This document shows positions 1 through 47,549 of a stretch of DNA of 64,000 nucleotides, piece by piece. The position numbers and the translations under genes are program-made. Where the stretch lies: the NCBI RefSeq assembly GCF_038871235.1, contig NZ_JAVZIN010000006.1, positions 1 through 64,000 of the forward strand, in the 5' to 3' direction. Under the pieces are notes generated by a model. It was not told the DNA's origin. It was given only the letters and a program-made list of their open reading frames with translations, and made no database searches. Position 1 is the first letter of the stretch, and each line of letters begins with the position of its first letter. Origin of the DNA: Candidatus Hadarchaeum sp. (GTDB lineage: Archaea > Hadarchaeota > Hadarchaeia > Hadarchaeales > Hadarchaeaceae).

Positions 1-1011
1 TCTGAGCCTCACGAGCTCGTAAACGCACCTCTCCCCCCTCAGCGCCTTTTTGAAGTTTTCTTCAAAGATCTTTCTATTTTCATCGTCGAGAAAGTCGGTC
101 ACGCGCCGGCCAATTACCTCCTCCCTTGAAACACCCATCATCTCACAGTACTTCTGGTTGACATACTGGATGACGCCGTTTTCGTCCACGTAAGCCAACC
201 CATCGTTCATCGTCTCGACCAGCGTCCGGTAGCGCTCTTCGCTTCTTTTTAGTTCCAGTTCTGCCAATTCGCGCTTTCTTCTCTGCTCTGCCATCCTGAT
301 TATGTTCATCTTGACGTTTTCGACAAGTTCCCTAGTGATGTTGCCGCTCCTCATCGGCAGAAAATCAGCTGGAGGTATATAAATGTGATTTTCATAAATG
401 GAGCCCTGCATGATAATCTTGGGATGTGTGTAAATAATCTCGAGCAATGTTTTTTGGTCGAATTTTTTCTCATTATATAGACAGATCGCCGAGACCTTGC
501 TTTTTGGAAAGTAGTAGTTCAGCTTCGCCTCATACTCAACGAGCCTTTCGGCACCGGTAGGCTTTTTCAGGGCCCAAGTCATTTCCCCGGAAATCCTCAG
601 CCCATGATAGCCTTCTTTGATGGCTTTGTTTTCGTTCTGTTTTAGCAGCTCTACCATTCGGTCAGGATCAAAATAACCCCCATGAAGATAGGTTTCCTCG
701 CTCGAGAGCAATTCGAATTGTTTTGACCTGAGGTGCTTCTTGAGGTCGACGCCCGCTTTGTTGAATGCTTGAATGACTTCCTCCTTGCTGCTTTCATCTA
801 GGATATAGATACATTTCTCGTGGTTTTGAAGGCCGGCGCGGAAGAATTGGGTGAGGATGGAGAATTTTTCGTCAGCGTCTTGATAAAATCCGCATAAGTG
901 TTCACCGGGCTCGATTCTATCAAACCCACTCCCGGCAACCCGTTCAGGAATAACCTTGGGTTCTGTCTTTATTTTTCTCCTTTTTTGTTCCTTGTTTTTC
1001 AGCTTCGGCAC
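1..1011 (-). CDS. MEDS-domain + PAS-domain sensor protein (3' end runs off the window)
   Basis: Not in the ORF track; translated by hand from GTG at 1011. MPKLKNK...GEHLCGFY...GYFDPDRM...GLRISGEMTW...EYEAKLN...AICLY...THP is typical of MEDS. It is followed by a coiled coil and SEERYRTLVETMNDGLAYVDENGVIQYVN (PAS). Confidence 0.88.
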   Translation of the reverse strand, partial: MPKLKNKEQKRRKIKTEPKVIPERVAGSGFDRIEPGEHLCGFYQDADEKFSILTQFFRAGLQNHEKCIYILDESSKEEVIQAFNKAGVDLKKHLRSKQFELLSSEETYLHGGYFDPDRMVELLKQNENKAIKEGYHGLRISGEMTWALKKPTGAERLVEYEAKLNYYFPKSKVSAICLYNEKKFDQKTLLEIIYTHPKIIMQGSIYENHIYIPPADFLPMRSGNITRELVENVKMNIIRMAEQRRKRELAELELKRSEERYRTLVETMNDGLAYVDENGVIQYVNQKYCEMMGVSREEVIGRRVTDFLDDENRKIFEENFKKALRGERCVYELVRLR

Positions 1012-1604: not shown

Positions 1605-2270
1605 ATGCCTAGGGAAAAAGTGGTCTGTCTGGTCTCCGGTGGCATCGACTCGCCGGTGGCGATGGCGCTGGCCGCGAGGAGGTATGAAGTCCTGCCGCTT
1701 CATTTCTGCCTTTATCCCTATACCTGCGAGGACACATTCATGGTCGCGATGAGGGTGCTTGAGGATCTGAAGAGAAAGGTCGATTTTGAGAAGCTCATCG
1801 TCTATCCTTGGGCGAAGATCCTGCGAAGGATAATGGGCGGTCAGGAGAGGAGCTACGCTTGCCTAGAGTGTCGGCGCGGCATGTTTCGGGTGGCCGAGAT
1901 GGTTTGCCAGAAGGAGGGTGCCTCGGGAATTGTCACGGGGGAGGTGCTGGGTCAGAAGGCCTCGCAGACGCTGTCCAACCTCTGGGCCACCACGGCTGGG
2001 CTGAAGTTCCCGGTGCTACGCCCGCTGCTCGGCATGGACAAGGTCGAGATTGAACAGATCTCGAAGAGGCTCGGTATCTGGCACGAGGTCCACGCCGGCT
2101 GCTGCTATGCGACTCCAAAGCACCCGCGTACCCAAGCACAGCCCGCGAAGGTGGACTCCCTGTGGAAAATCCTGAAATTGGAGGAACTCATCAGGGAGCA
2201 GATGAACAACGTGTTAGAGGTGAGAACCTTCCAAGAGGACTTTAGGGCGTATTTGGAAAAGCTGGTTTAG
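1605..2270 (+). CDS. ThiI-like PP-loop sulfurtransferase, catalytic domain only (no NFLD/THUMP domain)
   Basis: SGGIDS PP-loop at residue ~11, CLECRR, TGEVLGQKASQT, LRPL.G.DK.EI, GCC..TPKHPRT; only 221 aa. Confidence 0.8.
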   Translation: MPREKVVCLVSGGIDSPVAMALAARRYEVLPLHFCLYPYTCEDTFMVAMRVLEDLKRKVDFEKLIVYPWAKILRRIMGGQERSYACLECRRGMFRVAEMVCQKEGASGIVTGEVLGQKASQTLSNLWATTAGLKFPVLRPLLGMDKVEIEQISKRLGIWHEVHAGCCYATPKHPRTQAQPAKVDSLWKILKLEELIREQMNNVLEVRTFQEDFRAYLEKLV

Positions 2271-2369
2271 TCGACGAGACTGTCAACTCCCCGATTGACA
2301 GCGGATCCTTTGGAAGCTTGAAAAAGACAATTCCCCACTCGACATTATTTGTGTATCCGATAGAAAAAA

Positions 2370-3203
2370 TCAAACCGATCTCAATTCCCTCAGCATTTTA
2401 GAGTGGGTTTCGCAGAACTCGCTTTCCTTTGGCCCCAGCTGCGCCAAGATGACCTCCTCCTGCCAATGGGCGTTGTAGAGGCGGCAGGTCTTGATCTCGC
2501 AGAAGGGGTTGGAGGTCAGGTGGTAGAACAGCGCCTGCATAACGTAGCCCTTCATCACCTCGGTGAGCCTCTCATCATCGTAGTCGATGAAGCGGCCGCG
2601 GAACCTCTCCTTCAGCTCCTCGTAGGCGATGGCTCCCAGAGCTAGGTAATGTTGCCTCAGCGCGTAGAATTCCCTAGGCTTGGCCGGCGCCTCCACGATT
2701 CCGGTCGTCGATATCAGGCAGGGAAAGCTGTAGAGGCTCACCCGGGCGTGGTATCTCGCGTCGGCATCTTCCCAAGTTCCGAAGAGCCGGTTGGTGAAGA
2801 TGAGGTGCAGGTGGTTTTGGGTCCTCTCCTCCTCGGGGATCAGCCTCAGAGCTAGGCTCTTGAGGGCAACACCGTCGTAGAGGAGCCCGAGGAGTCGCTG
2901 CTCCGGGTTCTGCAACAGCTTCAGCTCCAGGTTGATTTCTCCGGGAAGTGGTTCAAGGAAAGATTCTTTTTTCATCGGGTCGCGAATTCTTGCCCGCGCC
3001 ATGGCTCGAGCTAGCTCTCTGAGGGCAACACCATCGCGTTGGAAAAAGAGCGGTTCCCTTATATCCACCGAGACATGACCCAACTTCTCGGCCAAGTACT
3101 CAGAGATCTCCCCAAGATTGAGGGTTTTCGAAGACCTGTCCTCATAGAGATGGATTCTGGGCAGAATTTTAGCCGCTTTCTCTGAGCTTCTCATAGGCGA
3201 CAT
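2370..3203 (-). CDS. DUF6775-like archaeal protein (putative metallopeptidase fold); true start probably near the thi4 stop
   Basis: LYDG...[10 protein letters not shown]...YHAR...[17 protein letters not shown]...FC..x[11 protein letters not shown]...FCETH. Confidence 0.65.
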
Positions 3204-3957
3204 CGGCGGCCCGCTTTCCGCTCATCAGCATCGCACCGAAAGTTGGTCCCATTCTGGGCAGCCCGTAGGCGGTCGATACTGCCATCCCAGTGACAATCAG
3301 CCCCGGATAAACCTCGCCCGTGTGCTCGACAACAAGGTCCTCGGAGCGTTCGACCCACATGGCCCCGTAGCCCGGGACCTTGAGCAGCCCGCGCTTCTCC
3401 AGCATCCTCACCACAGCCGCGTCGTGACCAGTGGCGTCGATGACCAGCTTGCTCTCCAGCCCCACGGGATCGACGCAGGTTATCTCCCGGGGCAGCGCCG
3501 AGACTGGGGTCCAGTTGACGACCACACCACCGACGCGTCCCTTCTCCTTCAGGATGACGTCATCGATCAGCGTCATGTTCAGAATTTTGACCCCGGCGTC
3601 ACAGGCGGCAGCGATGAGTCTGGAGCAGGCGTGGGGGCCGTCAGCCACATAGAGTCCCTTGGAAGATTCAGTGAAGGGCACTCCCAGCTCCTCGAGGATT
3701 TTCTGGGCCGGTGCCCGCACGGTGACCTTGTTCATCAAATAACCGCCAATCCAGAAACCGCCGCCGAGGTAGTTGTTGCGCTCAATCACCAACGTGGCCA
3801 CACCGCGCCGCGCCAGTTCTCTGGCCGCCATGAGCCCGCTCGGTCCTCCGCCTACCACAATAATATCGCTCTCGGCATAGCGATGGAAGTCCCTCATGAA
3901 GCCCTCAACTATGGCTCGGGTGACTTCCTTTTCCCCAGATGGTTCAAAGGTCGGCAT
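3169..3957 (-). CDS. thi4: Thiazole synthase Thi4 (Cys-type active site)
   Basis: [10 protein letters not shown] Rossmann motif, [35 protein letters not shown]. Confidence 0.95.
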
Positions 3958-3987
3958 TTTCTCCCACCAAATAACGTCGTTCCTTAC

Positions 3988-4779
3988 TTAAAGGTTTGCT
4001 CCACCCATTCTATAGCCGCCTCTGTCGATGGCAACGGTTGGATAGCCCATTGCCTTCAGAGCGGAGATTATCCTCTCCTCAAGCTCTTTGGCACGGTCCA
4101 GCTCCTCCTTACCCACCTCCACCCTCGCCCAGTTTCCGTGATCCCTGACCCTGACCACGCGGAAGCCCAGCGAGCGGAGGAACTCCTCGCCACGGGCTAT
4201 TCGTTTAAGTTTTTCCGCGGTGATTTCTTGGCCGAAAGGTATTCTGGAGGCTAAGCAGGGGCTGGCTGGCTTTTCCGCGTTGGGCAGCCCATATCTCAAG
4301 GCCAGCTTTCGGACCTCATTTTTCGTTAGCCCGGCTTCCGCGAGCGGGCTGATCACTCCGAATTCCCTTAACGCACGTAATCCCGGTCGATAATCTCGGT
4401 GGTCATCGCGGTTGGTGCCGTCGAAGATATGTTTGAAACCGAGCTTCTTCCTGATTTTCTCCAGCCTTTCGAGGAGCTCCCGCTTGCAGTGGTAACAACG
4501 CTCGGGGGGGTTCCTGCAGAATTCAGGATTTTTCAGTTCATTTGTCTTGATCACCAGCAGCCTGATACCGATCCACTTCGCCACGGATCTGGCGCTCTCC
4601 AGCTCCCCAGGAGGATAGGTGGGTGAAATGGCCGTGATAGCCACTGCTCGGTCCCCCAAGACCTCGTGTGAAACCGCGCACACCAGAGAAGAGTCAACTC
4701 CTCCGGAGAAGGCGATGACCGCGCTCTCGCAGGCTTTGATGCATGACTTTAGCCGTTGTTCTTTATTTTCTATTGACAT
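3988..4779 (-). CDS. larE: LarE-family ATP-dependent sulfur transferase
   Basis: FSGGVDS, NPPERCYHCK, DGTN.DD..DYRPG, SPCLASRIP.G, RVRDHG; start taken as MSIENK at 4779. Confidence 0.92.
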   Translation of the reverse strand: MSIENKEQRLKSCIKACESAVIAFSGGVDSSLVCAVSHEVLGDRAVAITAISPTYPPGELESARSVAKWIGIRLLVIKTNELKNPEFCRNPPERCYHCKRELLERLEKIRKKLGFKHIFDGTNRDDHRDYRPGLRALREFGVISPLAEAGLTKNEVRKLALRYGLPNAEKPASPCLASRIPFGQEITAEKLKRIARGEEFLRSLGFRVVRVRDHGNWARVEVGKEELDRAKELEERIISALKAMGYPTVAIDRGGYRMGGANL

Positions 4780-4843
4780 CGGTGCCGCCCCATTAACCAT
4801 TGTTCGCATGCAGGTTAAACTGGTTTGTGCGGGCACCTGCTGC

Positions 4844-4870
4844 GAAAGACATATAAATGACTTTTATAAC
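4844..4870. promoter_or_regulatory. Probable divergent archaeal promoters for mtaB (+) and larE (-)
   Basis: gaaagacaTATAAA (BRE/TATA-like) ~20 nt upstream of the mtaB ATG; gttATAAAag on the opposite strand. Confidence 0.4.
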
Positions 4871-4876
4871 ACTGTT

Positions 4877-6262
4877 ATGGGTGTTCACATAAAAACCTTT
4901 ACCCGAATGGAGCTGGGGTCTCCGCAGGAGCTCGTCTTCGGCCGGGCTAAGTATCCTTTGAGATATGGCTTGGGGTTGGAGGTGGGCAGTGGTTCAGTGA
5001 TCCCAGAGCTGAAGTATTCTCCGCGACCAGGCAAAGAACAGAGCCTAACTTCGCTGAAAAAAGAGTACGAAACGATAACTAAGGATATCCTCGACCGGGC
5101 CATTGACGTCGGGCTACCTGCCGTGCAACTTGAGACGGAGCATGTGGTTCAGATGACGAGCAATCCGAAATGGGGCGCTGAGATAACCGCACTGCAGAAG
5201 GAACTGTTGGAGAAATATCATGAGGAGCACGGCATAAGGTGCGCACTGAGGCAGACCATTGCCGACATTAGGAAGACGGAGCTCGATATGAGGGAAGGAG
5301 CGGAGTTCAATAAGGTTATTGAGTCCTTCGAGCTTTGTGCCGAGTCAGGAGCAGATGTTCTGGCAATTGAATCGCTGGGCGGGAAGGAGGTTTTCGATTA
5401 TGCGATAGCGAGACAAGATGTGAGGGGCATCCTTTTCTCGCTGGGGGTTCTCGCTTGCCAGGATATGCAGTTCCTCTGGGAAAATATTGTCGGCATAGCC
5501 AGAAAGAACAACGTCATACCCGGCGGCGACACCGACTGCGCGCGCTCCAACACGGCCATGTTCTTAGCCGGGGGCTACAGGAGCAATGAGTTACCCCACA
5601 CCATCGCCGCGATCGTTAGGGCTGCCGGGGCATCTAGGTCGTTAGTGGCCTTCGAGTCGGGCGCAACCGGACCGGATAAGGATTGCGGTTATGAGGGAGT
5701 GATAATAAAAGCTGTTACCGGCCGGCCGATTTCCCAAGAAGGAAAGAGCTCGGCCTGCGCGCATTCGAGCCTCTTGGGCAACATCGCCGCTGTGGCTTGC
5801 GACCTTTGGTCCAACGAGGCCGTCCAATATGGTGATATGTTCGGCGGAAGCACACCCCAAGTCTTCACGGAGATACTGGGTTATGATGTTGCCCTCTTTA
5901 ACGCCGCGTTGGCCACCGGCAACGAGTTGAAGCTCAGAGATCTGCTTGCCCTTTCGGACAGGTACCGTGATCCGCAGGCGCTCATTTTGGCCCCGGAAAA
6001 TGCCTACCGCATAGGCAAAACCATCGTGGAAAATTCTAAGGACAGTTATCTGAGGACAAAGTCAGCCATGTTGGAGGCGACGAGAATAATCGAGGAAAAT
6101 AAGGAGAAGCTCCAGCTTTCTGATCTGGAGCGCAGGTCTCTGGAAAAAGCAATTGTGGCGCTTTCCGAGTTTCCCGATGATGGGGATAAGTTTACCTCCG
6201 CTTGTCTTGATATTTACCGTAAACTGGTTCCGGGCTTCAATCCGAAGAATTATGGTCTTTGA
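4877..6262 (+). CDS. mtaB: Methanol:corrinoid methyltransferase MtaB
   Basis: ELVFG.AKYP...GLGLEVG.G..IPELKY.PRP, LETEHVVQMT, IES.GGKE, GDTDCA, GPDKDCGYE, EGKSSACAHS..LGN, CDLWSNE, DRYRDPQA. The Zn-ligand Glu/Cys/Cys motifs are present. Start at ATG 4877, not 4619. Confidence 0.93.
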   Translation: MGVHIKTFTRMELGSPQELVFGRAKYPLRYGLGLEVGSGSVIPELKYSPRPGKEQSLTSLKKEYETITKDILDRAIDVGLPAVQLETEHVVQMTSNPKWGAEITALQKELLEKYHEEHGIRCALRQTIADIRKTELDMREGAEFNKVIESFELCAESGADVLAIESLGGKEVFDYAIARQDVRGILFSLGVLACQDMQFLWENIVGIARKNNVIPGGDTDCARSNTAMFLAGGYRSNELPHTIAAIVRAAGASRSLVAFESGATGPDKDCGYEGVIIKAVTGRPISQEGKSSACAHSSLLGNIAAVACDLWSNEAVQYGDMFGGSTPQVFTEILGYDVALFNAALATGNELKLRDLLALSDRYRDPQALILAPENAYRIGKTIVENSKDSYLRTKSAMLEATRIIEENKEKLQLSDLERRSLEKAIVALSEFPDDGDKFTSACLDIYRKLVPGFNPKNYGL

Positions 6263-6271
6263 GGTGATGTT

Positions 6272-8029
6272 ATGAGCTTTACACCAAAGAAGCGGGTAAT
6301 TTCGGCACTTCTGGGCGGAAGGGTTGACAGAATTCCGGCCACGGCGGTCTGTCAGACGGCCACGCACGACCAGATGCAGGCGATAGGTGTGGGCTGGCCG
6401 GAGGCCCACCTAGACGCGGATAAAATGGCGAAGCTCGCCAGCGCGGCATACACACTGACGGGTCTGGAGACGGCAAGGGTCCCGTTTGATCAAGCTGTTG
6501 AAGCCGAGGCCCTTGGCGGGAGGATGGAGATCAAGGCGGAGATCCCAGCCATCGTGGGGCACTTGAATGATTTCTCGGAGTTGAAGATACCTGAAAATTT
6601 CCTAGAACTGGGACGAGTGCCGGTGGTACTCGGAGCTGTCGAAAAGCTCTCTGAAAAATTTGGCGATGTCCTGCCGGTGATGGCAGGGATAATCGGTCCG
6701 TTTTCAATTGCGACACAGATCTTCGACCCCAGCGACATGTTGAAGTGGACCATCACCCGGCAGAGAGAGAGTTCGGAAGTCCTGTCGGCGCTGGTTGATC
6801 CGCTGGTCGAGTACGCGAACGAATTGACAAAGAGAGGGGCTGATATCATAATCATCGAGGACATGTTTTCCTCCCAGCTTGGCAGCAAGGCGTTCCGCGC
6901 CGTAGCCATGGAGCCGCTTAAAAAACTGGTGGAGAGGATCAAAAACATCGTGGTCATTCACATGTGCGGGAATATAACCAAAATGGTTTCCGATGTGGTC
7001 GAGGTCGGTGCCGATGGTCTGAGCATAGCTAAGGAGACGGATCTCGCTACTGCCATCCGCAGCGCCCGCGGTAAAACAGCAATCATTGGCAACATTGACC
7101 CTGTCAGCGATCTGATGTTAAAAGGAAGTTCGGCGGTGGAGGCGGCGGTGAGGGCAGCGATCGATGGCGGCGTGGATTTGGTTGCTCCCGGATGCAGTTT
7201 GGCGCCGGCAACGCCGATGGAAAATATAAAGCAGATGGTTCTTCAGGTGCAGCGCTACGGTGGAAGGGTGGAAGCAGTGGCGCCAAGGGAAGTTGATTTG
7301 GGAAAGATCTTCACTAAGTACGGGGTAGTGAGAGCAGGCCCACCGATATATGAGTCCTTGTTGCCAGTAGTTGCTGAGCTGGCCGATGTTGCCAAAGCGG
7401 TAGTTAGGGGCGATTCCGCAGCGGTTGAAGCCGCGGTCCGTGCTGCCTTGGAAAAGCTGGAGCCGCTGAGGGTCATTTCCGATGGATTGACCGCGGGGAT
7501 GACCATCGTGAGCAAGATGTGGGAGGATGGTGTTTACTTCCTTCCTGAGGTGGTAAATGCCGCTGATGCCATGCAGGCAGGTATCTCGCTGTGCGAGAAA
7601 AAGATGGGACGGGCCGCGACTAGGAAGGCCAAGATCATCACCCACGTGGCGGAGGGTGATATCCATGACATCGGTAAGAATATTGTTTCGGCTCTTCTGA
7701 ACGCGAACGGGTTTGAGGTCATTGACTTGGGGAGGGATGTCCCGGTGGAAAGGGTTGTCGAGGAGACCAAGAAAAATAAACCGCTTTTGGTGATGGGAAC
7801 GGCTTTGATGACCACTACGATGACGGCCTTCCCGAAGCTGGTGGAAAGATTGAAGCAGGAAGGATTGAGCACAACGCTCGCCTGCGGCGGTGGAGCAGTT
7901 AACCAAGAATATGTGGAGACCTTTGAAAACAGCGTCTTCGGCGACAAAGCAGTAGACGCGGTGAAAATAGCCGAGCTGGCGCTAAAAGGGCTTTCTTGGC
8001 GCGAGATAAGGGGGAGAGTGCATAAGTAG
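6272..8029 (+). CDS. Fusion of an MtaA/URO-D-family methylcobamide:thiol methyltransferase (aa ~1-330) with an MtaC-type corrinoid protein (aa ~340-585)
   Basis: N-half: WPEAH.DA.KMA, RVPFD..VEAEALG, GPFS, IHMCG (HxC), IIGNIDP, APGC. C-half: EDGVYFLP, HVAEGDIHDIGKNIV (DxHxxG), DLGRDVP, GTALMTTTM, ACGGGAV. One uninterrupted ORF with GAGGTGA RBS. Confidence 0.92.
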   Translation: MSFTPKKRVISALLGGRVDRIPATAVCQTATHDQMQAIGVGWPEAHLDADKMAKLASAAYTLTGLETARVPFDQAVEAEALGGRMEIKAEIPAIVGHLNDFSELKIPENFLELGRVPVVLGAVEKLSEKFGDVLPVMAGIIGPFSIATQIFDPSDMLKWTITRQRESSEVLSALVDPLVEYANELTKRGADIIIIEDMFSSQLGSKAFRAVAMEPLKKLVERIKNIVVIHMCGNITKMVSDVVEVGADGLSIAKETDLATAIRSARGKTAIIGNIDPVSDLMLKGSSAVEAAVRAAIDGGVDLVAPGCSLAPATPMENIKQMVLQVQRYGGRVEAVAPREVDLGKIFTKYGVVRAGPPIYESLLPVVAELADVAKAVVRGDSAAVEAAVRAALEKLEPLRVISDGLTAGMTIVSKMWEDGVYFLPEVVNAADAMQAGISLCEKKMGRAATRKAKIITHVAEGDIHDIGKNIVSALLNANGFEVIDLGRDVPVERVVEETKKNKPLLVMGTALMTTTMTAFPKLVERLKQEGLSTTLACGGGAVNQEYVETFENSVFGDKAVDAVKIAELALKGLSWREIRGRVHK

Positions 8030-8254
8030 GAATTGCTCCTCAGTTTTTGTGGCTTAAAATTCTTTTGATTTTAAAAACATAAGGTTCGAATTTCGGACTA
8101 TCAAGTTATAAGCCGAATGCGCTTACTATTTTTACCCTATGGTAGTTAATTTTTGAAAAAGCCCGGATATTTTCTATCGAATTCCTAATTTTTTGGTTCG
8201 TTAACTAAAATATTTAAAAGAAAGTGGACGAGAATTTAAGCGAGGGTCGTTAGC

Positions 8255-8692
8255 TTGGCTAAGAAAAAGAAAACCAAGATTTTTGGTAAAAAGACCCCAG
8301 CAAGAAGACAGACACGTTCGGAGAGAAAGAATGAGATTGTCGTAGAGATGAAGGACATCGTGAAGAAATTTCCTGGCGTGGTTGCTAACGATCATGTGAA
8401 TTTTGAGGTCAGGGCTGGAGAAATTCACGCCTTGCTAGGGGAAAATGGCGCTGGGAAAACGACATTGATGAATGTTTTATATGGTCTATATCAGCCAGAT
8501 GAAGGGGAAATATACGTTCGTGGGAAAAAAGTGAACGTAACGTCTCCGAAGGACGCGATCGATTTAGGAATAGGGATGGTTCACCAGCACTTTATGCTCG
8601 TGCCTCCCATGAGCGTTGCTGAAAACATAATTTTGTGTTTGAAATCCTCGAAGGAACCATTTTTGGACCTAGAAACTGCGGAGAAAAAATAA
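8255..8692 (+). pseudogene. Truncated sugar/nucleoside ABC transporter ATPase (N-terminal fragment)
   Basis: KKFPGVVAND.V...HALLGENGAGKTTL, IGMVHQHF, but the ORF stops at 145 aa in an A-run (GAG AAA AAA TAA) before the signature and Walker B motifs; no continuation seen. Confidence 0.8.
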
Positions 8693-8720: not shown

Positions 8721-8909
8721 TCAAGAATTATATTCAATTAGGATTTTGTAACTTTTTGTCTCCCAATAGGCTTTAGCTATTTCCATAGCCTTATGGTTTA
8801 TCTCACCACACGCCTTGTTTTCATCAAGACATTCAATAGCAAAAGCAACTTTAAGATCATACTCCTCCTTTGGAGTTGCGCAAATTCTTATTCCTTTTTT
8901 TGGCGTCAA
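8721..8909 (-). CDS. Small hypothetical protein (62 aa), last gene of the liv operon
   Basis: TTG start overlaps the livF TGA stop (TTGA); no recognised motif. Confidence 0.4.
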   Translation of the reverse strand: MTPKKGIRICATPKEEYDLKVAFAIECLDENKACGEINHKAMEIAKAYWETKSYKILIEYNS

Positions 8910-9607
8910 CCAAAGAATAAGGAGGCCAACTTGTCTGGTCTGTTTAAAATACTGTTATCGCCTCGATATTTTATCTCGCCTGCTGAAAGCACATAAACTC
9001 GATCACTTAACTTTGCTATGTCTCCTAAAACTTGCTCAACTGCAAGAAAACTATAGCCCTTTTTTTTCAACTGCTTTAATTCCTCTGCTATTAGACTTCG
9101 TTTACCTATATCCAGACCTAAGGAAGGTTCATCTAGTAAAATCAATTTAGCACCGGAAACAACAGCTCTGGCTATGTTCAGCATTTGTCTTTCTCCTCCG
9201 CTTAGAAAACCAGCTTTTTGTTTTTCTCTATCTTTTAATATTGGGAAAATTTCGTGAACTTTTTGAATATTCTGTTTAAATTCGGCTTTATTTTTCAAAT
9301 AACGCCCAGCAATTTCCAAATTTTCCCTTACAGTCATGTCAGGAAATACCATAGCGCCTTGGGGGACGTAGAAAATTCCTGATTTTATTATATTACTCGG
9401 ACTTAGCTTTTTTAAACTTTTTCCTTCAAAAATTATTTCACCTTCGTAAGGTTTTAATATGTTCATGATAGTTCTGAGAAGGGTAGTCTTACCCGCGCCG
9501 TTAGGGCCAATTACAAGCGTAAATTTGCCTCTTTCTGCTTTTAGGTTTATTCCATGAAGAACCTCGGAGCCTCCGTATCCGCTTCTGATGTTAGTAACTT
9601 CGAGCAC
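8906..9607 (-). CDS. livF: Branched-chain amino acid-type ABC transporter ATPase (LivF-like)
   Basis: GPNGAGKTT, YVPQG, LSGGERQM, LLDEPSLGL. Confidence 0.9.
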   Translation of the reverse strand: MLEVTNIRSGYGGSEVLHGINLKAERGKFTLVIGPNGAGKTTLLRTIMNILKPYEGEIIFEGKSLKKLSPSNIIKSGIFYVPQGAMVFPDMTVRENLEIAGRYLKNKAEFKQNIQKVHEIFPILKDREKQKAGFLSGGERQMLNIARAVVSGAKLILLDEPSLGLDIGKRSLIAEELKQLKKKGYSFLAVEQVLGDIAKLSDRVYVLSAGEIKYRGDNSILNRPDKLASLFFG

Positions 9608-10309
9608 CTAAAACCCCCTAAAGTAAACATCATGCAAAATTTTACTTGATTTTATCTCTCTTGGAGTTCCTTCTTCTACTTTCTTCCCTCCGTGAAGCAC
9701 ATACACATAGTCCGCTATAGAGAAGAGCTGATCTAGGTTATGTTCCACTACCAAAATAACTTTTCCGTACTGTTCATTAATATCCTTTATACAATTTAGC
9801 ATCTTTTCTATACTTTTTGAATCCAAACCGCCCAAAGGCTCATCTAACAAAAGTATCCAAGCATCCGTTGCCATGGCTCTCGCTAATTCCAACATTTTCT
9901 TTTGCCCATAACCTAAATCTGAAGCTAATCTGTTCTTCACTGCCATTAGGTCGAACATTTGCAACAATTCGTTAAGTTTCTTAGTGTTTTCTAGCGAAGG
10001 ATTGCTAACTAAGATATTGCTTTCTACAGATAATTTAGAAAACACTCTTGGAAACTGGAAAGTCCTGCCAACTCCCATCCGCGCGATCTCATGCGGTTTT
10101 AGCCCAATCGTGTTTTTACCTTTTATTTTGACTTGGCCTTCCTCTGGTTTAAGGAAACCGTTTATAACATTTAATAAGGTAGTTTTGCCAGACCCGTTCG
10201 GCCCTATTAAGCCAAATATTTTATTTTCTTTTATATCAATAGAAACTTTCGAAAGCGCGGTCACCCCAATGAATTTCTTTGTCACTGACTCTACATTTAT
10301 AATACTCAT
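9608..10309 (-). CDS. livG: Branched-chain amino acid-type ABC transporter ATPase (LivG-like)
   Basis: GLIGPNGSGKTT, GVGRTFQ, LGYGQKKMLELARA, LLDEP, VEHN. Confidence 0.9.
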   Translation of the reverse strand: MSIINVESVTKKFIGVTALSKVSIDIKENKIFGLIGPNGSGKTTLLNVINGFLKPEEGQVKIKGKNTIGLKPHEIARMGVGRTFQFPRVFSKLSVESNILVSNPSLENTKKLNELLQMFDLMAVKNRLASDLGYGQKKMLELARAMATDAWILLLDEPLGGLDSKSIEKMLNCIKDINEQYGKVILVVEHNLDQLFSIADYVYVLHGGKKVEEGTPREIKSSKILHDVYFRGF

Positions 10310-11268
10310 CCCCCCATTCGTTGTTTACCTAATGCTTTCTTAATGGCCCCGAGCATGCCAGCAGGATAAATTTTTAAAACCAATATTACTAGAACCCCGT
10401 AAATAATGTATGTCCAAGGCAAACCAATCTTTATTGGCAAATACCTCATCAAAATACTTATTATGACCGAGCCAAGGATGCACCCAGCCAATTCATTGCT
10501 CCCCCCAACGACAACCATTGCTATCGGCAGGAATGAATTAGGAATTGAAAATATTGTGTAGTCTGCATGAGAGGTATAGAGCGCAAAACAAGTTCCTCCC
10601 AATCCTGCAAAAAATGAACTCACAAAGAAAATTAACACTTTAAAGTAAGTAACGTTTATCCCAAGCGATTCTGAAGCTAACCCGTCTTCTTTAATTGCCT
10701 TCAGTTTTATACCAATTCTGGAATTCTCCACGAAGAATATTGTCAACGTGCAAATCAAAAATATTACAAACACGATTGCATAAACCTGACCTACAGCTAA
10801 AATCTGTGTGCCGATGGAGATGCCTTCTTCACCGACTTGTAACAACGATATCCAAAAAGCAACTTGAGAGGCAATCAAAATAGCAATCCCTTGATATGCC
10901 GGCCTCAATCTGATAGTTGTTAAGCCAACTGTTCCGCCTATCACGGCCGCTAATATGGGAGCTAAAATTAATGCAACTATAGGAGGAAAATTGAACTTGG
11001 ATAAAAAGATCATAAGACTAAAGGCACCTATTCCGAAAGGCAGGGCATGGCCCAAACTCAATTGCCCCGAATAGGTGTATAGGATGTACCAGCTTACACT
11101 AAGCACCAAGTAGGAAATTAAATACATAAAGGTATAACACAAATAGCTAAAACCTGTGAAAAAAGAGAATACAAAGATTATAGCCAACCCAAGAATTACG
11201 GATAAACTTAATTTCCCCTTATTTACATATGGTTTTAGCTTTTCAAACACGTTCAACCAGACCACCAA
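10306..11268 (-). CDS. livM: Branched-chain amino acid-type ABC permease (LivM-like)
   Basis: GQLSLGH, RLR..Y, AIKED..A.ESLGIN, MVVVGG; multiple TM helices. Confidence 0.88.
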   Translation of the reverse strand: MVVWLNVFEKLKPYVNKGKLSLSVILGLAIIFVFSFFTGFSYLCYTFMYLISYLVLSVSWYILYTYSGQLSLGHALPFGIGAFSLMIFLSKFNFPPIVALILAPILAAVIGGTVGLTTIRLRPAYQGIAILIASQVAFWISLLQVGEEGISIGTQILAVGQVYAIVFVIFLICTLTIFFVENSRIGIKLKAIKEDGLASESLGINVTYFKVLIFFVSSFFAGLGGTCFALYTSHADYTIFSIPNSFLPIAMVVVGGSNELAGCILGSVIISILMRYLPIKIGLPWTYIIYGVLVILVLKIYPAGMLGAIKKALGKQRMGG

Positions 11269-12133
11269 GTAATCCAGTAGGTTTGATTAGCAAAATACAA
11301 TACATCACTAATAACACTATCACAATTGCATATGCTTGAATAAAAAACAATCCAACAGAGTAAACGAGTCCAAATATTAGCCCTCCGATTAGACTCCCAA
11401 ATATATTTCCTATACCTCCCAAGGTAACTATCACAAAAGCTAACGGAAGCACGCTCCAACCGGCAGCCGAATTTACGCTGAAAACAGAAGCTAACAGTGC
11501 TCCACTAGCTGATGCAAGTGTGCAACCTATACCGAAAGTTATGCAAGCCAATAATCCGCCGCTAAGACCCAACGCCTCAGCTAGCTCCTGATTCTGAGCG
11601 AATGCATAAATTCCCTTTCCAAGCTTTGTGTATTTAAGAAATAGATAAAGTAAAAGGTAAATGAACAACGATACGATGGACACGAGAAGTAATTGATTAA
11701 TTATAAATACGCCTGGGATCACTTCTAGCGAACCTAGTACTATGCTTGGAACTGCTACGGAGCTACCCCCAAATACAAAGAGCAGTAAATATTCTGTTAT
11801 CGTCGCAAGAGCTAAAAAAGTTATCATTACCGTGTTTTGTCCATCTGGGTCTGTGGTCACCCTCAAATTAGTGGGGAGAACGTAATAAACTACCCCCGCC
11901 GCTATTGCAAAGGTCACTATGACCGTAAGCAATATAGAAATGAATAAGGGAAGATTAAAAAAATAAATAAAAGAAAAACAAAAAAAGCCACCTAGAATGT
12001 AGAATGCGCCGTGAGAAGTGTTTACTATTTTCATCACACCATAGATCAGAGAAAGCCCTGCCGCGATTAGACTTAATGTTAATCCGTAAGCTATGCCTGC
12101 AAGCAGAGACGAAATTAGTTCTGCAGAAATCAT
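11243..12133 (-). CDS. livH: Branched-chain amino acid-type ABC permease (LivH-like)
   Basis: LIAAGLSLIYGVMKIVN.SHG, TKLG, AFVIVTLGG.GN. Confidence 0.9.
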   Translation of the reverse strand: MISAELISSLLAGIAYGLTLSLIAAGLSLIYGVMKIVNTSHGAFYILGGFFCFSFIYFFNLPLFISILLTVIVTFAIAAGVVYYVLPTNLRVTTDPDGQNTVMITFLALATITEYLLLFVFGGSSVAVPSIVLGSLEVIPGVFIINQLLLVSIVSLFIYLLLYLFLKYTKLGKGIYAFAQNQELAEALGLSGGLLACITFGIGCTLASASGALLASVFSVNSAAGWSVLPLAFVIVTLGGIGNIFGSLIGGLIFGLVYSVGLFFIQAYAIVIVLLVMYCILLIKPTGLLGGLVERV

Positions 12134-45946: not shown

Positions 45947-47156
45947 CCATTAACCTTCTTTCCCCTTCTAATTTTTTGATTTCGGTTATATCCTGAACAA
46001 CTTCCATTGTGCCCAAATAATTCCGGCTTTCATCCCTAACCGCAAAATATCTTATGTGGACAAATCTGCCTTTATAATTTATCCAGAATTCTGCGACGTT
46101 ACGGCTTCCCTCCTTAAATGAGTTTAGGATGGCCTCAACTTTGTCTACACTTTGCGGCGGGTGGCACTGTTGCACTTTTCTCCCTAACACTGATTTCGTT
46201 CTGATGAAAATTTTAGACCCAGTGTTATTGAAGTATCTAACTTTATCATCCTTGTCTACAAAAGTCACGTCCACAGGCAAGGTATTCAACAGGCACATCA
46301 ATTCTTTTAAAGTTAAATCACCGGTAGGAAAAGAAATAGTCCCCTTGTCCTTAACGAAGGGCTCCTCAACCAAGGCACTTTTCAATTCCTCTATTAAGGC
46401 AGAGGTCTCTTTGGGCTTTTCGATGTAAACATATCCCACCCCTTCGCTTTCCTTCAGTATCTCCACCCACTCCTCAGGCCTGAGCATTTCCACCGAAGAG
46501 GGGAAGAGTATGTTTTCCTCCTTAAAGATCATTCCCTCAACTTCACTGATCAAAGGGTTTAGAAATTTATCCACGTAATCCTCGCGCAGGCGCTCTTCCG
46601 TCGTTTCTATGCTAACGATCGCGTTTTTGAGCATATCTCTGATCTCGTTGTCCTTGCCCCACATCACCTTTGAGGGCCCGTAGAACCCATGGCGTTCAAG
46701 GTAAGGGAAAAGAACCTGTTCTTTTCTCTGGTAGTGCACATCCAAACCTTTAAGATCAGAAAGTTTTTCCCTGATTTTTTCCTTCCAATCCGAAAAGTTG
46801 TATTTTTGTCTATTTTTTATATACTCCTTTATCTCGGCGATGATCTTCTCCACCTCCCTGTTTTCCAATTTAAAGAGGTAAACCGGATGCGCTGGAGATT
46901 CCTCTTTAATCACCGCTTTCTTCAATGCCGACTCAAACAGCAAGGCATGGACGTTGCAGAATTTCTTTATTTCCTCCGGGGTTAATCCGTCATTTATCAG
47001 CGATTGCTCGATCTCTGCAATTTCCATAGAAGTTATACTTCCTATTTCTTTCTCAAACTTTTCCTTCGCTTCCTCCACAGATAGACCTCTGTGAAGATCT
47101 AGAATTATTTTTTTGATTATTTCCTTTTTCGCACTTTTTGACAAATTTTCGGTCAT
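45933..47156 (-). CDS. DUF438 / hemerythrin / PAS domain protein
   Basis: EIAEIEQ.L, CNVHA, HPV..FK.EN, HY.RKE..LFP.LE, VMW..D.EIR, MIFKEE.IL, PVD.TFVD, CHPP.S. Confidence 0.85.
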   Translation of the reverse strand: MTENLSKSAKKEIIKKIILDLHRGLSVEEAKEKFEKEIGSITSMEIAEIEQSLINDGLTPEEIKKFCNVHALLFESALKKAVIKEESPAHPVYLFKLENREVEKIIAEIKEYIKNRQKYNFSDWKEKIREKLSDLKGLDVHYQRKEQVLFPYLERHGFYGPSKVMWGKDNEIRDMLKNAIVSIETTEERLREDYVDKFLNPLISEVEGMIFKEENILFPSSVEMLRPEEWVEILKESEGVGYVYIEKPKETSALIEELKSALVEEPFVKDKGTISFPTGDLTLKELMCLLNTLPVDVTFVDKDDKVRYFNNTGSKIFIRTKSVLGRKVQQCHPPQSVDKVEAILNSFKEGSRNVAEFWINYKGRFVHIRYFAVRDESRNYLGTMEVVQDITEIKKLEGERRLMDEKN

Positions 47157-47549
47157 GTTTTTACCTAATTTATCTTTTTGCAGAGCTTATTAAGACCACT
47201 CTCACCTTTTTGTCGGATCTCTTAGATTGCGCACACGTGTGCATTATTGGGTGAGCCAAATCGTCGTGCTCGTACCATTTCAGCTCTGGGTTTTTGAAGT
47301 GTCAACAATTTTCTGATCGTGCAAGAACTCTTTTTGTCGAGGTAAACCAAACTACCAACTGGCACCAATTCTCCGAAGCTCCGCACGGATGTTTTTGAGC
47401 TACGTGTAGCTGGCATGCAAGAATAACTTCAATACCTCGCACAAGCCAAAAATATTCGGAAGTGGCAAAAGCATGCCCTAATGGCCGTTGGTCTGGAAAA
47501 TGATAAAGGGGATATTTTTTAACTCTGGTAGCCAAGTTAACTTGATTTT

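What the first reader, a model, noticed from the sequence alone, without database searches (positions are those of the whole stretch)
4877..8029. Two-gene methanol methyl-transfer module: mtaB plus a single-chain MtaA-MtaC fusion
Seen: a full-length MtaB with intact Zn-ligand motifs, followed 9 nt later by one 585-aa ORF joining an MtaA/URO-D domain (HMC and APGC thiol-activating Zn motifs) to a corrinoid domain. The corrinoid half keeps MtaC-specific features: the N-terminal LGKIFTKYGV extension, HVAEGDIHDIGK, GTALMTTTM and ACGGGAVNQ. Known: in Methanosarcina-type methylotrophs MtaA, MtaB and MtaC are separate proteins, usually encoded as mtaCB with mtaA elsewhere. Inference: the corrinoid is tethered to the second methyltransferase, giving a compact methanol-to-thiol machine. 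No mcr, mtr or corrinoid reactivase gene lies in the window. If the host lacks Mcr, this would be non-methanogenic archaeal methylotrophy with an unknown methyl acceptor (CoM, sulfide/methanethiol or another thiol).
Basis: partly seen in the sequence, partly recalled or inferred. Interest (0 to 1): 0.8.

Follow-up and report, generated by a model that had tools for sequence, protein, structure and literature searches.

The report
Methanol methyltransferase with fused MtaA-MtaC
A hot-spring archaeon that cannot make methane carries a compact two-gene, vitamin-B12-dependent system for taking the methyl group off methanol. Its B12 carrier is fused to the enzyme that normally hands the methyl group to a sulfur compound, and the compound that receives it here is unknown.

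Summary
mtaB (4877-6262, 461 aa) is followed after a 9-nt spacer holding a GGTGA ribosome-binding site by one 585-aa ORF (6272-8029). That ORF joins a full MtaA-type zinc methyltransferase end to end with a full MtaC corrinoid protein.

The junction is real. The same open frame stands in three other Hadarchaeota species genomes and in further metagenome contigs. Contigs from other studies cross it without indels.

The host is a Candidatus Hadarchaeum (1.2 Mb, 94.75% complete). I found no mcrA, mtrA/H, cdhD, mch, MTHFR, folD, comA or comD. It does hold a RACo-type activase, 5 pyrrolysine-free MtmB-like and 3 MttB-like genes, 7 small corrinoid proteins, a solitary MtaA-like gene, two core-MetE genes and a probable Mer.

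In the phylum, 4 of 66 genomes carry the fusion, each directly behind mtaB, and none of the four has mcrA.

The fusion is not unique. At least three fused clades exist, and one bacterial contig has the same mtaB-fusion pair. A 2026 Moorella paper mentions a fused mtaA-mtaC gene. This scan noted similar fusions earlier on other DNA.

Verdict: a real, conserved, uncharacterised variant of the methanol methyltransferase system in a non-methanogen. The methyl acceptor is still unknown.

The parts
4877..6262 (+). mtaB, methanol:corrinoid methyltransferase (MT1), 461 aa. The putative zinc ligands are E165, C221 and C270.
   Evidence: Pfam MtaB 667.9 bits. NCBIfam MtaB_Meth 676.8 bits, below the equivalog cut-off of 720. 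541.6 bits to 2I2X_A over 6-460, with the residues at chain positions 164, 220 and 269 conserved. It is the only MtaB in the genome.
6263..6271 (+). 9-nt spacer GGTGATGTT with a Shine-Dalgarno-like GGTGA. It suggests one operon and translational coupling.
   Evidence: Sequence. The same 9-nt spacing is seen in L002 and L003. An RNA-library contig covers 6131-6380 across the spacer, which is only a weak hint.
6272..8029 (+). Single ORF of 585 aa: the MtaA (MT2) - MtaC (corrinoid protein) fusion.
   Evidence: AlphaFold2 model with alignment A1: mean pLDDT 88.2, pTM 0.83.
6281..7258 (+). MtaA-type URO-D-fold zinc methyltransferase domain (residues 4-329). Zinc motif: H230-x-C232 (6959-6967) and C308 (7193-7195).
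   Evidence: Pfam URO-D 230.5 bits. NCBIfam PRK06252 315.4 bits (cut-off 244). Foldseek 4AY8_A: TM (target) 0.93, rmsd 1.4. H230, C232 and C308 are invariant in 35 of 35 fused proteins.
7268..7342 (+). Junction: a linker of about 8-12 residues plus the native N-terminal arm of MtaC (residues 333-357). It is predicted to be flexible.
   Evidence: It is the only segment with pLDDT below 50. Stand-alone MtaA relatives P0009 and P0010 end exactly where the fused proteins continue, and stand-alone MtaC P0132 begins at the 'VDLGKIF' position. Contigs X3 7037-7291 and 7282-7550 and X6 7221-7411 cross the junction without gaps.
7382..7594 (+). B12-binding_2 helical cap domain (residues 371-441).
   Evidence: Pfam PF02607 67.9 bits.
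7631..7942 (+). B12-binding Rossmann domain (residues 454-557) with D463-x-H465-x-x-G468. H465 is encoded at 7664-7666.
   Evidence: Pfam PF02310 81.5 bits. D463, H465 and G468 are invariant in 35 of 35 fused proteins. Foldseek 2I2X_B: TM (target) 0.73.

Best explanation
This is a working two-gene methanol methyl-transfer system of a non-methanogenic archaeon (Candidatus Hadarchaeum).

Proposed cycle:
1. MtaB activates methanol at its zinc site and methylates Co(I) of the corrinoid held by the MtaC half of the second protein, as in the Methanosarcina MtaBC complex.
2. The corrinoid domain hangs on a flexible stretch of about 25 residues. It then swings to the MtaA-type zinc barrel of its own chain, or of a partner chain.
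3. That barrel passes the methyl group to a thiolate.
4. The RACo-type activase encoded elsewhere in the genome repairs oxidised Co(II).

What is shown: the domain identities, the intact catalytic motifs, the operon structure, the conservation of the fusion and the absence of Mcr.

What is inferred: the order of methyl transfers, the cis shuttle and the thiol nature of the acceptor.

My best guess for the acceptor is a small sulfur compound other than coenzyme M, such as sulfide, methanethiol or another low-molecular thiol. That would make this methyl-sulfur metabolism, not energy-yielding methylotrophy. This last step is the weakest.
For: Domains and motifs. The zinc ligands H230, C232 and C308 and the corrinoid motif D463/H465/G468 are invariant in 35 of 35 fused proteins.

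Operon: a 9-nt spacer with GGTGA.

Conservation: fused orthologues of 72-82% identity stand in 3 further Hadarchaeota species genomes, each directly behind mtaB. So 4 of the 4 fusion-bearing genomes, out of 66 searched, show the pairing. The pair also stands in L069 and L070. In L070 a RACo gene lies immediately downstream.

Flexible tether: only residues 333-357 have pLDDT below 50, while both domains are confident.

Host lacks methanogenesis and known exits: mcrA 0, MtrH 0, MtrA 0, CdhD 0, Mch 0, MTHFR 0, FolD below cut-off, ComA 0, ComD below cut-off (19.6 against 148 bits). The only pterin-binding protein is a dihydropteroate synthase, so no pterin-type MT2 is present. The activase is present.

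[quoted passage not shown] The abstract of PMC10418091 proposes methyl-sulfur or methyl-selenide roles for MtaA homologues in non-methanogens.
Against: No acceptor is identified, and no pathway that would use the product was found, so the physiological sense is open.

The NCBIfam equivalog cut-offs are not reached: MtaB 676.8 of 720, MtaA 294.4 of 400, MtaC 248 of 420 and 254.9 of 450. Specificity for methanol and for a given acceptor may therefore differ from Methanosarcina.

The module is patchy, in 4 of 66 Hadarchaeota genomes, so it may be an accessory trait.

Expression is not shown. RNA-library contigs cover parts of both genes, but DNA carry-over was not excluded.

A probable Mer (355.1 bits, cut-off 348.7) leaves open that methyl groups reach H4MPT through an unrecognised enzyme.

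The genome is 94.75% complete, so single absences are not proof.
Confidence: 0.7

Rival explanations
1. Methionine supply. The methylated corrinoid domain, or the MtaA domain acting on homocysteine, feeds methyl groups from methanol into methionine and SAM synthesis. The module would then be assimilatory.
For: Two adjacent core-MetE-type genes lie at C1:45978-46910 and 46973-47896. One reaches the NCBIfam methionine synthase equivalog PRK04326 (407.4 bits, cut-off 406). No MTHFR was found. Here ThiI, Thi4 and a PP-loop ATPase lie just upstream.
Against: A probable Mer could make methyl-H4MPT from serine-derived C1 units, so methanol is not needed for methionine. Nine MT1-type genes (1 MtaB, 5 MtmB-like, 3 MttB-like) in 1.2 Mb seem too many for one biosynthetic methyl group. 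The MetE genes are not linked to the module. The upstream synteny was seen only within one genus.
Confidence: 0.15
2. Coenzyme M is the acceptor after all. The cell imports CoM or makes it by an unknown route, and methyl-CoM is used by a missing or unrecognised enzyme, or by a partner organism.
For: The MtaA half is closest to methylcobalamin:CoM methyltransferases: PRK06252 at 315.4 bits is over its cut-off, and 4AY7 scores 210 bits. Other Hadarchaeota use CoM with Acr (PMC10811742, abstract and passages; mcrA family in 5 of 66 genomes).
Against: mcrA is absent from all 4 of the 4 module-bearing genomes, which are 90-95% complete. The own genome has no MtrA or MtrH, no ComA, and ComD only far below its cut-off. 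MtaA_Meth scores below its equivalog cut-off.
Confidence: 0.08
3. The fused protein is a self-contained MtsA/CmuA-like enzyme. Its zinc domain takes methyl groups off a methylated sulfur (or halogen) compound onto its own corrinoid. MtaB is then a second, parallel donor, and the true exit enzyme lies elsewhere, for example the solitary MtaA-like gene at C1:32234-33316.
For: CmuA has the same domain order and matches at 25.1% identity over residues 220-551. TIGR01463 (mtaA_cmuA) is over its cut-off (255.3 against 235.4). That the MtsA subunit catalyses both half-reactions is stated only in the title of a paper seen in a reference list. A solitary MT2-type gene exists (279.9 bits to PRK06252). 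Fused proteins without mtaB nearby exist (L077, L080).
Against: In all 4 Hadarchaeota genomes, and in L069, L070 and L071, the fused gene sits directly behind mtaB. The corrinoid half is MtaC-like along its whole length, including the N-terminal arm, as judged by the alignment to 2I2X_B from chain residue 6.
Confidence: 0.06
4. Assembly artefact or decaying gene: two genes joined by a sequencing or assembly error, or a pseudogene.
For: None found.
Against: The open frame is conserved at 57-86% identity in separate assemblies (P0003-P0008; G039, G036, G022). No indels were seen in 4 runs, and contigs of other studies cross the junction. All catalytic residues are conserved.
Confidence: 0.01

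Closest known systems
MtaABC methanol:coenzyme M methyltransferase of Methanosarcina (MtaB-MtaC complex PDB 2I2X; MtaA PDB 4AY7/4AY8)
   Same: All three components are present and full length, with their catalytic motifs: MtaB 541.6 bits to 2I2X_A, the MtaC half 208.6 bits to 2I2X_B, the MtaA half 210.3 bits to 4AY7. The folds agree.
   Different: MtaA and MtaC form one polypeptide, with gene order mtaB then mtaA-mtaC. The host has no Mcr, no Mtr and no recognisable CoM synthesis. All three score below the NCBIfam equivalog cut-offs.
CmuA, the chloromethane methyltransferase/corrinoid protein of Methylorubrum extorquens CM4 (plasmid record NC_011758.1)
   Same: It has the same single-chain order, a URO-D-type methyltransferase followed by a corrinoid domain. 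One tblastn piece spans residues 220-551. The shared NCBIfam subfamily TIGR01463 is over its cut-off.
   Different: Only 25.1% identity over 57% of the query. Here the partner is MtaB, whereas CmuA works with the pterin-type CmuB (recalled). No pterin-type methyltransferase is in this genome. His465 of DxHxxG is kept here. I recall that CmuA lacks this histidine, and I did not test it.
Fused corrinoid/methyl-transfer proteins MtsD, MtsF and MtsH of Methanosarcina acetivorans (Oelgeschlager and Rother 2009; seen only as an entry in a reference list)
   Same: A corrinoid domain and an MT2-type domain in one chain, linked to methyl-sulfur metabolism.
   Different: As I recall, their corrinoid domain is N-terminal, the opposite order. 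They act without MtaB and occur in a methanogen. I did not test this here. One representative, P0203, does have its corrinoid domain at residues 6-205.
'mtaA and mtaC fused together' gene Mothe_c14370 of Moorella thermoacetica (PMC13391211, passages read)
   Same: It is a mention in print of an mtaA-mtaC fusion in a non-methanogen.
   Different: It is listed only as a gene. In the passages I read no function is given and no mtaB is said to lie beside it. I did not compare its sequence.
Cobalamin-dependent methionine synthase MetH
   Same: The logic is the same: a zinc-thiol barrel and a B12 domain on one chain, with the B12 domain moving between donor and acceptor barrels. MetH chains are the only multi-domain matches of the model.
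   Different: The overall TM-scores are low (0.26-0.33). The donor barrel (MtaB) is a separate protein and the donor is methanol, not methyl-folate.

Membership tests
MtaB (Pfam PF12176; NCBIfam NF040651 MtaB_Meth) | Full-length match to the family profile | tested here: met
   Pfam 667.9 bits over profile 2-460 of 460. 541.6 bits to 2I2X_A.
MtaB (Pfam PF12176; NCBIfam NF040651 MtaB_Meth) | Score over the NCBIfam equivalog cut-off (same function as the methanogen enzyme) | tested here: not met
   676.8 bits against a cut-off of 720.
MtaB (Pfam PF12176; NCBIfam NF040651 MtaB_Meth) | Zinc ligands Glu/Cys/Cys (positions 164, 220 and 269 of the M. barkeri chain; their role is recalled) | tested here: met
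   E165, C221 and C270 align with those positions.
MtaB (Pfam PF12176; NCBIfam NF040651 MtaB_Meth) | Methanol as the substrate | not testable with these tools
   Needs an enzyme assay.
MtaA / methylcobamide:CoM methyltransferase (MT2; URO-D fold; NF004889, NF040654) | URO-D fold and a subfamily profile match | tested here: met
   PF01208 230.5 bits. NF004889 315.4 bits (cut-off 244). TIGR01463 255.3 bits (cut-off 235.4). Foldseek 4AY8: TM 0.93.
MtaA / methylcobamide:CoM methyltransferase (MT2; URO-D fold; NF004889, NF040654) | Equivalog score for MtaA of methanogens | tested here: not met
   NF040654 scores 294.4 bits against a cut-off of 400. MtbA scores 232.9 against 600.
MtaA / methylcobamide:CoM methyltransferase (MT2; URO-D fold; NF004889, NF040654) | H-x-C ... 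C zinc motif that activates the thiol | tested here: met
   H230, C232 and C308 align with the HiCGN and APGC motifs of 4AY7. They are invariant in 35 of 35 fused proteins.
MtaA / methylcobamide:CoM methyltransferase (MT2; URO-D fold; NF004889, NF040654) | Coenzyme M as acceptor, in a host that makes and uses CoM | tested here: not met
   No mcrA, MtrH, MtrA or ComA, and ComD only at 19.6 against 148 bits, in a genome 94.75% complete. The acceptor itself cannot be tested with these tools.
MtaC methanol corrinoid protein (NF040655, NF040669; TIGR02370) | Cap plus Rossmann B12 domains with DxHxxG | tested here: met
   PF02607 67.9 bits, PF02310 81.5 bits. D463, H465 and G468 are present. TIGR02370 scores 216.6 bits (cut-off 215.3).
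MtaC methanol corrinoid protein (NF040655, NF040669; TIGR02370) | MtaC-specific N-terminal arm and full-length likeness to the MtaC of the MtaBC complex | tested here: met
   Residues 340-585 align with residues 6-257 of 2I2X_B.
MtaC methanol corrinoid protein (NF040655, NF040669; TIGR02370) | Equivalog score | tested here: not met
   248 bits against 420, and 254.9 against 450. Part of the shortfall may be due to the fusion.
CmuA (chloromethane methyltransferase/corrinoid fusion) | Single chain with an N-terminal URO-D-type methyltransferase and a C-terminal corrinoid domain | tested here: met
CmuA (chloromethane methyltransferase/corrinoid fusion) | Close sequence kinship to CmuA and a pterin-type CmuB partner | tested here: not met
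   25.1% identity over residues 220-551. The only pterin-binding protein in the genome is a DHPS. The neighbour is MtaB.

The most novel reading that the evidence does not exclude
Candidatus Hadarchaeum and its kin run an undescribed archaeal methyl-group metabolism. It would be independent of Mcr, Mtr, the Wood-Ljungdahl pathway and coenzyme M. Methyl groups from methanol (MtaB), and from amines through nine MT1-type enzymes in a 1.2-Mb genome, would be loaded onto a so far unknown thiol carrier or onto sulfide. The fused MtaA-MtaC would be the dedicated methanol entry point. The process would matter for energy or sulfur cycling in hot springs, for instance methanethiol or dimethylsulfide production from methanol.
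Probability: 0.15. Interest if true: 0.85.

Novelty: new variant of a known kind. Interest (0 to 1): 0.55.

Why it matters
Published work on Hadarchaeota, as far as my full-text searches reach, describes heterotrophs, CO oxidisers and one alkane-oxidising family (PMC10811742, abstract). A search for Hadarchaeota together with mtaB found no paper.

This genome and three related species show a dense set of corrinoid methyltransferases without any known exit for the methyl group. The same open question stands for MtaA homologues in many non-methanogens (PMC10418091, abstract).

This module needs only two proteins plus an activase. That makes it an unusually simple system to express and to use for screening acceptors. 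It also gives a natural example of a tethered corrinoid carrier working between a separate donor enzyme and a fused acceptor enzyme.

Tried and rejected
1. Unfused ancestor in L004. I guessed that L004 held an unfused mtaA-mtaC-mtaB set. Its downstream and upstream ORFs are unrelated to MtaC and MtaB, so only a solitary mtaA is there.

2. Pterin-binding protein. I took the gene at C1:67419-68351 for a possible methyl-corrinoid:pterin methyltransferase. It is a dihydropteroate synthase (198.9 bits, cut-off 162.6).

3. Metagenome census. My first script called L072-type loci possible fusions because the tblastn match ran through. Translation shows three stops between the mtaA-like and mtaC-like genes. 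Adjacency to mtaB outside Hadarchaeota therefore rests on one contig, L071.

4. Acetoanaerobium noterae hit H1. It has separate adjacent genes and no mtaB.

5. Fission or sister? The tree places the stand-alone MtaA of G037 and G038 inside the Hadarchaeal fused clade. The AU test does not reject a tree with the 7 fused rows held together (p 0.08), so this is undecided.

6. CoM-binding residues. I looked for the structure paper on MtaA to compare them. It is not in the library.

7. RNA evidence. Contigs of one RNA library cover parts of both genes, but no silent control stretch was laid, so transcription is not shown.

8. Supplements. Supplementary tables of PMC10811742, which list gene content per Hadarchaeota genome, could not be opened. 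They may already list these methyltransferase genes.

9. Complex prediction was not used. MtaB with an MtaC domain would pass merely by likeness to 2I2X.


Full report
WHAT IS THERE

The ORF list and translations show mtaB at 4877-6262 (461 aa, ATG start inside a longer open frame). Its TGA stop is followed by the nine bases GGTGATGTT, which hold a Shine-Dalgarno-like GGTGA, and then by the ATG of a 585-aa ORF at 6272-8029.

Pfam gives MtaB 667.9 bits for the first protein. For the second it gives URO-D (residues 4-329, 230.5 bits), B12-binding_2 (371-441, 67.9 bits) and B12-binding (454-557, 81.5 bits).

NCBIfam places the N-terminal half in the methylcobalamin:CoM methyltransferase subfamily (PRK06252 315.4 bits, cut-off 244; TIGR01463 mtaA_cmuA 255.3, cut-off 235.4). 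It places the C-terminal half among methyltransferase corrinoid proteins (TIGR02370 216.6, cut-off 215.3). All three methanogen equivalog models fall short of their cut-offs: MtaB 676.8 of 720, MtaA 294.4 of 400, MtaC 248 of 420 and 254.9 of 450.

Against solved structures, residues 2-324 align with M. mazei MtaA (4AY7). Residues 340-585 align with residues 6-257 of the 258-residue M. barkeri MtaC chain of the MtaBC complex (2I2X_B). So the protein is two complete proteins joined end to end. The MtaB aligns over its whole length with 2I2X_A, with the residues at chain positions 164, 220 and 269 conserved. That these are the zinc ligands is recalled.

IS THE FUSION REAL?

Yes. In the alignment, stand-alone MtaA relatives (P0009, P0010) end exactly where the fused proteins run on through an 8-12-residue linker. 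That linker leads into the sequence with which stand-alone MtaC proteins begin.

Fused orthologues occur as separate protein clusters at 86, 84, 82, 71, 66 and 57% identity (P0003-P0008). They also occur in three other Hadarchaeota species genomes (G039 82%, G036 80%, G022 72%) and in metagenome contigs L069 and L070.

The named records L002 (Ca. Hadarchaeum yellowstonense YNP_45) and L003 (Ca. Hadarchaeum sp. KM4338-48) give the same identity figures as G039 and G036. L070 gives the same figure as G022. They are probably the same genomes and I do not count them twice.

Laying contigs of four public runs on 4700-8200 showed no insertion or deletion. A DNA run of another study has contigs at 7037-7291 and 7282-7550. 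A metatranscriptome library of a fourth study has a contig at 7221-7411, across the domain boundary, and another at 6131-6380, across the mtaB-fusion spacer. These are contigs. They show presence and continuity, not transcription.

WHO CARRIES IT?

The window is contig C6 of a 1,205,095-base, 16-contig genome, rated 94.75% complete with 0.88% contamination. It has an archaeal 16S rRNA gene. Its closest named relatives are Candidatus Hadarchaeum.

Genome-wide family searches gave:
- Not found: mcrA, MtrH, MtrA, CdhD, Mch, MTHFR, ComA.
- Found only far below cut-off: FolD and ComD.
- One MtaB.
- Three URO-D-family genes and one weak match. One is a solitary MtaA-like gene at C1:32234-33316 (279.9 bits to PRK06252), only 34% identical to the fused domain.
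- Ten B12-binding matches. Seven are small corrinoid proteins, two are radical-SAM-size proteins of about 460-485 aa (one confirmed as a B12-binding radical SAM enzyme), and one is below the cut-off.
- Three MttB-family genes.
- Five MtmB-family genes read without an internal stop.
- One RACo/AcsV-type corrinoid activase.
- Two adjacent core-MetE genes.
- A single pterin-binding protein, which is a dihydropteroate synthase.
- A probable Mer (355.1 bits, cut-off 348.7) inside an F420 biosynthesis cluster (84, 91).

So the cell has many ways to put methyl groups on corrinoid proteins and zinc-thiol-type enzymes to take them off. It has none of the known onward routes. [quoted passage not shown]

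HOW WIDESPREAD?

In the 66 Hadarchaeota species genomes held, own included, the fused orthologue is in 4. MtaB is in 5: the same 4, each directly upstream of the fusion, and G059 with a more distant MtaB. The mcrA family is in 5 others and in none of the module bearers. Two genomes of the same genus (G037, G038) have a stand-alone MtaA 71-72% identical to the fused domain and no MtaB.

Outside the phylum:
- The 90%-cluster search listed 31 fused proteins among its best 120.
- The all-against-all HMMER search found 9616 hits at E up to 0.001. By my criteria, at least 13 fused proteins are among its best 150 representatives, and none of the 150 is longer than 817 residues, so no triple fusion with MtaB appears.
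- Of the 268 proteins held, 41 are fused in the order MtaA then MtaC.

Trees of the two domains were built separately (109 rows, the best 60 of 129 stand-alone MtaA kept; 69 rows). They give the same three fused clades: the Hadarchaeal one, a second of 8, and a third of about 20 that includes L071.

On the MtaA tree at least 13 changes between fused and unfused are needed, so fusion or fission has recurred. Whether G037 and G038 are secondary fissions is undecided (AU p 0.08).

L071 is a contig whose neighbours (DUF1559 and prepilin-type N-methylation proteins) look bacterial. It has mtaB (54% identical) ending 11 bases before a fused gene (41% and 52% identical in the two halves). So the same two-gene module exists outside the archaea.

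Many other contigs have mtaA and mtaC as neighbouring separate genes in that order. In L072 they lie in the same frame with three stops between them. That is the obvious raw material for such fusions.

Earlier notes of this scan (e1-365577, e1-3705635, e1-5286079) reported related fusions on other DNA. I treat them as leads only.

CLOSEST KNOWN FUSIONS

CmuA of Methylorubrum extorquens CM4 shares the domain order but only 25.1% identity. [quoted passage not shown] Full-text searches for the fusion together with MtaB found no description of this module, and none for Hadarchaeota with mtaB.

HOW IT PROBABLY WORKS

The AlphaFold2 model built on the 35-sequence alignment is confident for both halves (mean pLDDT 88.2, pTM 0.83). 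It is disordered only at residues 333-357, the linker plus the N-terminal arm of MtaC. Foldseek matches the halves to MtaA (TM 0.93) and MtaC (TM 0.73). Apart from these, only methionine synthase appears as a multi-domain relative. The zinc ligands H230, C232 and C308 and the corrinoid motif D463, H465 and G468 are invariant in all 35 fused proteins.

I therefore propose this cycle:
1. MtaB methylates the Co(I) corrinoid on the MtaC half, as in the MtaBC complex.
2. The corrinoid domain, held on a flexible tether of about 25 residues, moves to the MtaA barrel.
3. There a zinc-bound thiolate takes the methyl group.
4. The RACo-type protein, which in L070 lies next to the module, restores Co(I) after accidental oxidation.

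The chemistry of both steps follows from the families. The cis shuttle and the thiol acceptor are inferences.

Coenzyme M is unlikely as the acceptor, because neither its synthesis nor any enzyme that uses methyl-CoM was found. The pterin route used by acetogens (MtaA1 of 29.7 kDa acting on THF; PMC13391211, passages) has no candidate enzyme here. What remains is sulfide, methanethiol or another small thiol, homocysteine (methionine supply), or an unknown carrier.

VERDICT

The fusion is genuine and under selection, and the host is a non-methanogen. This is a new variant of a known system, not a new kind of system. Fused relatives are not rare, and one has been mentioned in print without study.

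Its value is practical. It is a two-protein, thermophilic, self-tethered system in which the long-open question of what MtaA-type enzymes methylate outside methanogens can be tested directly.

Noticed in passing
window 1-1011 (- strand, runs off the contig start): A protein with a MEDS domain (165.1 bits; 'methanogen/methylotroph, DcmR sensory') followed by PAS domains lies 3.9 kb upstream of mtaB. It could be a sensor or regulator for the methyltransferase genes.
   Followed up: no
window 1605-4836: Directly upstream of mtaB, and partly divergent from it, lie three sulfur- or thiamine-related genes: ThiI (1605-2270, +), Thi4 thiazole synthase (3169-3957, -) and a PP-loop ATPase (3988-4836, -). 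A DUF6775 metallopeptidase-like gene also lies there. The same ORF sizes and order stand in L002 and L003, but only within this genus.
   Followed up: partly
window 8255-8692 (+): A 145-aa ORF matches only the first 80 of 137 positions of the ABC-transporter ATPase profile. It is possibly a gene fragment. It lies beside a complete Liv-type ABC importer on the other strand (8906-12133), in a stretch of low G+C (0.385 against 0.51 for the window).
   Followed up: no
G000 C1:129733-131103, C3:58512-59894, C3:104513-105892, C9:36636-38024, C10:58108-59493: Five MtmB-family genes of 456-462 aa have no in-frame stop, so they are pyrrolysine-free. Four lie beside a small corrinoid protein gene, and the fifth lies behind a corrinoid-MttB gene pair. 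Neighbours include a Na+/solute symporter, an EamA transporter and an aminotransferase. Earlier notes e1-1228922 and e1-1357951 describe two of them.
   Followed up: partly
G000 C3:85172-86137: A luciferase-like F420-dependent gene scores just over the Mer equivalog cut-off (355.1 against 348.7 bits). It sits among F420 biosynthesis genes (CofG/H-like, CofD, CofE). The genome has no Mch, MtrA or MtrH. Its role is unclear.
   Followed up: partly
G000 C1:45978-46910 and C1:46973-47896: Two adjacent core-MetE-type methionine synthase genes. One is over the equivalog cut-off (407.4 against 406 bits) and the other is divergent (227.2 bits).
   Followed up: no
L080 1728-3527 and 3881-5737; L077 1405-3177: Metagenome contigs carry a different, distant fused clade (about 28% identity in the MtaA half). 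L080 has two fused genes in tandem. No mtaB lies within the flanks held.
   Followed up: no
L070 338-2588 and 5762-7720: In the relative from another Hadarchaeota genus, two further divergent URO-D-family genes lie upstream of mtaB. A RACo-type activase lies convergently just downstream of the fusion.
   Followed up: partly
G038:C106:1882-3573 and G013:C50:301-1980: A second type of URO-D-corrinoid fusion, 33% identical to the query, occurs in two other Hadarchaeota genomes. The G038 copy is read through 3 TAA stops, so it may be broken.
   Followed up: no
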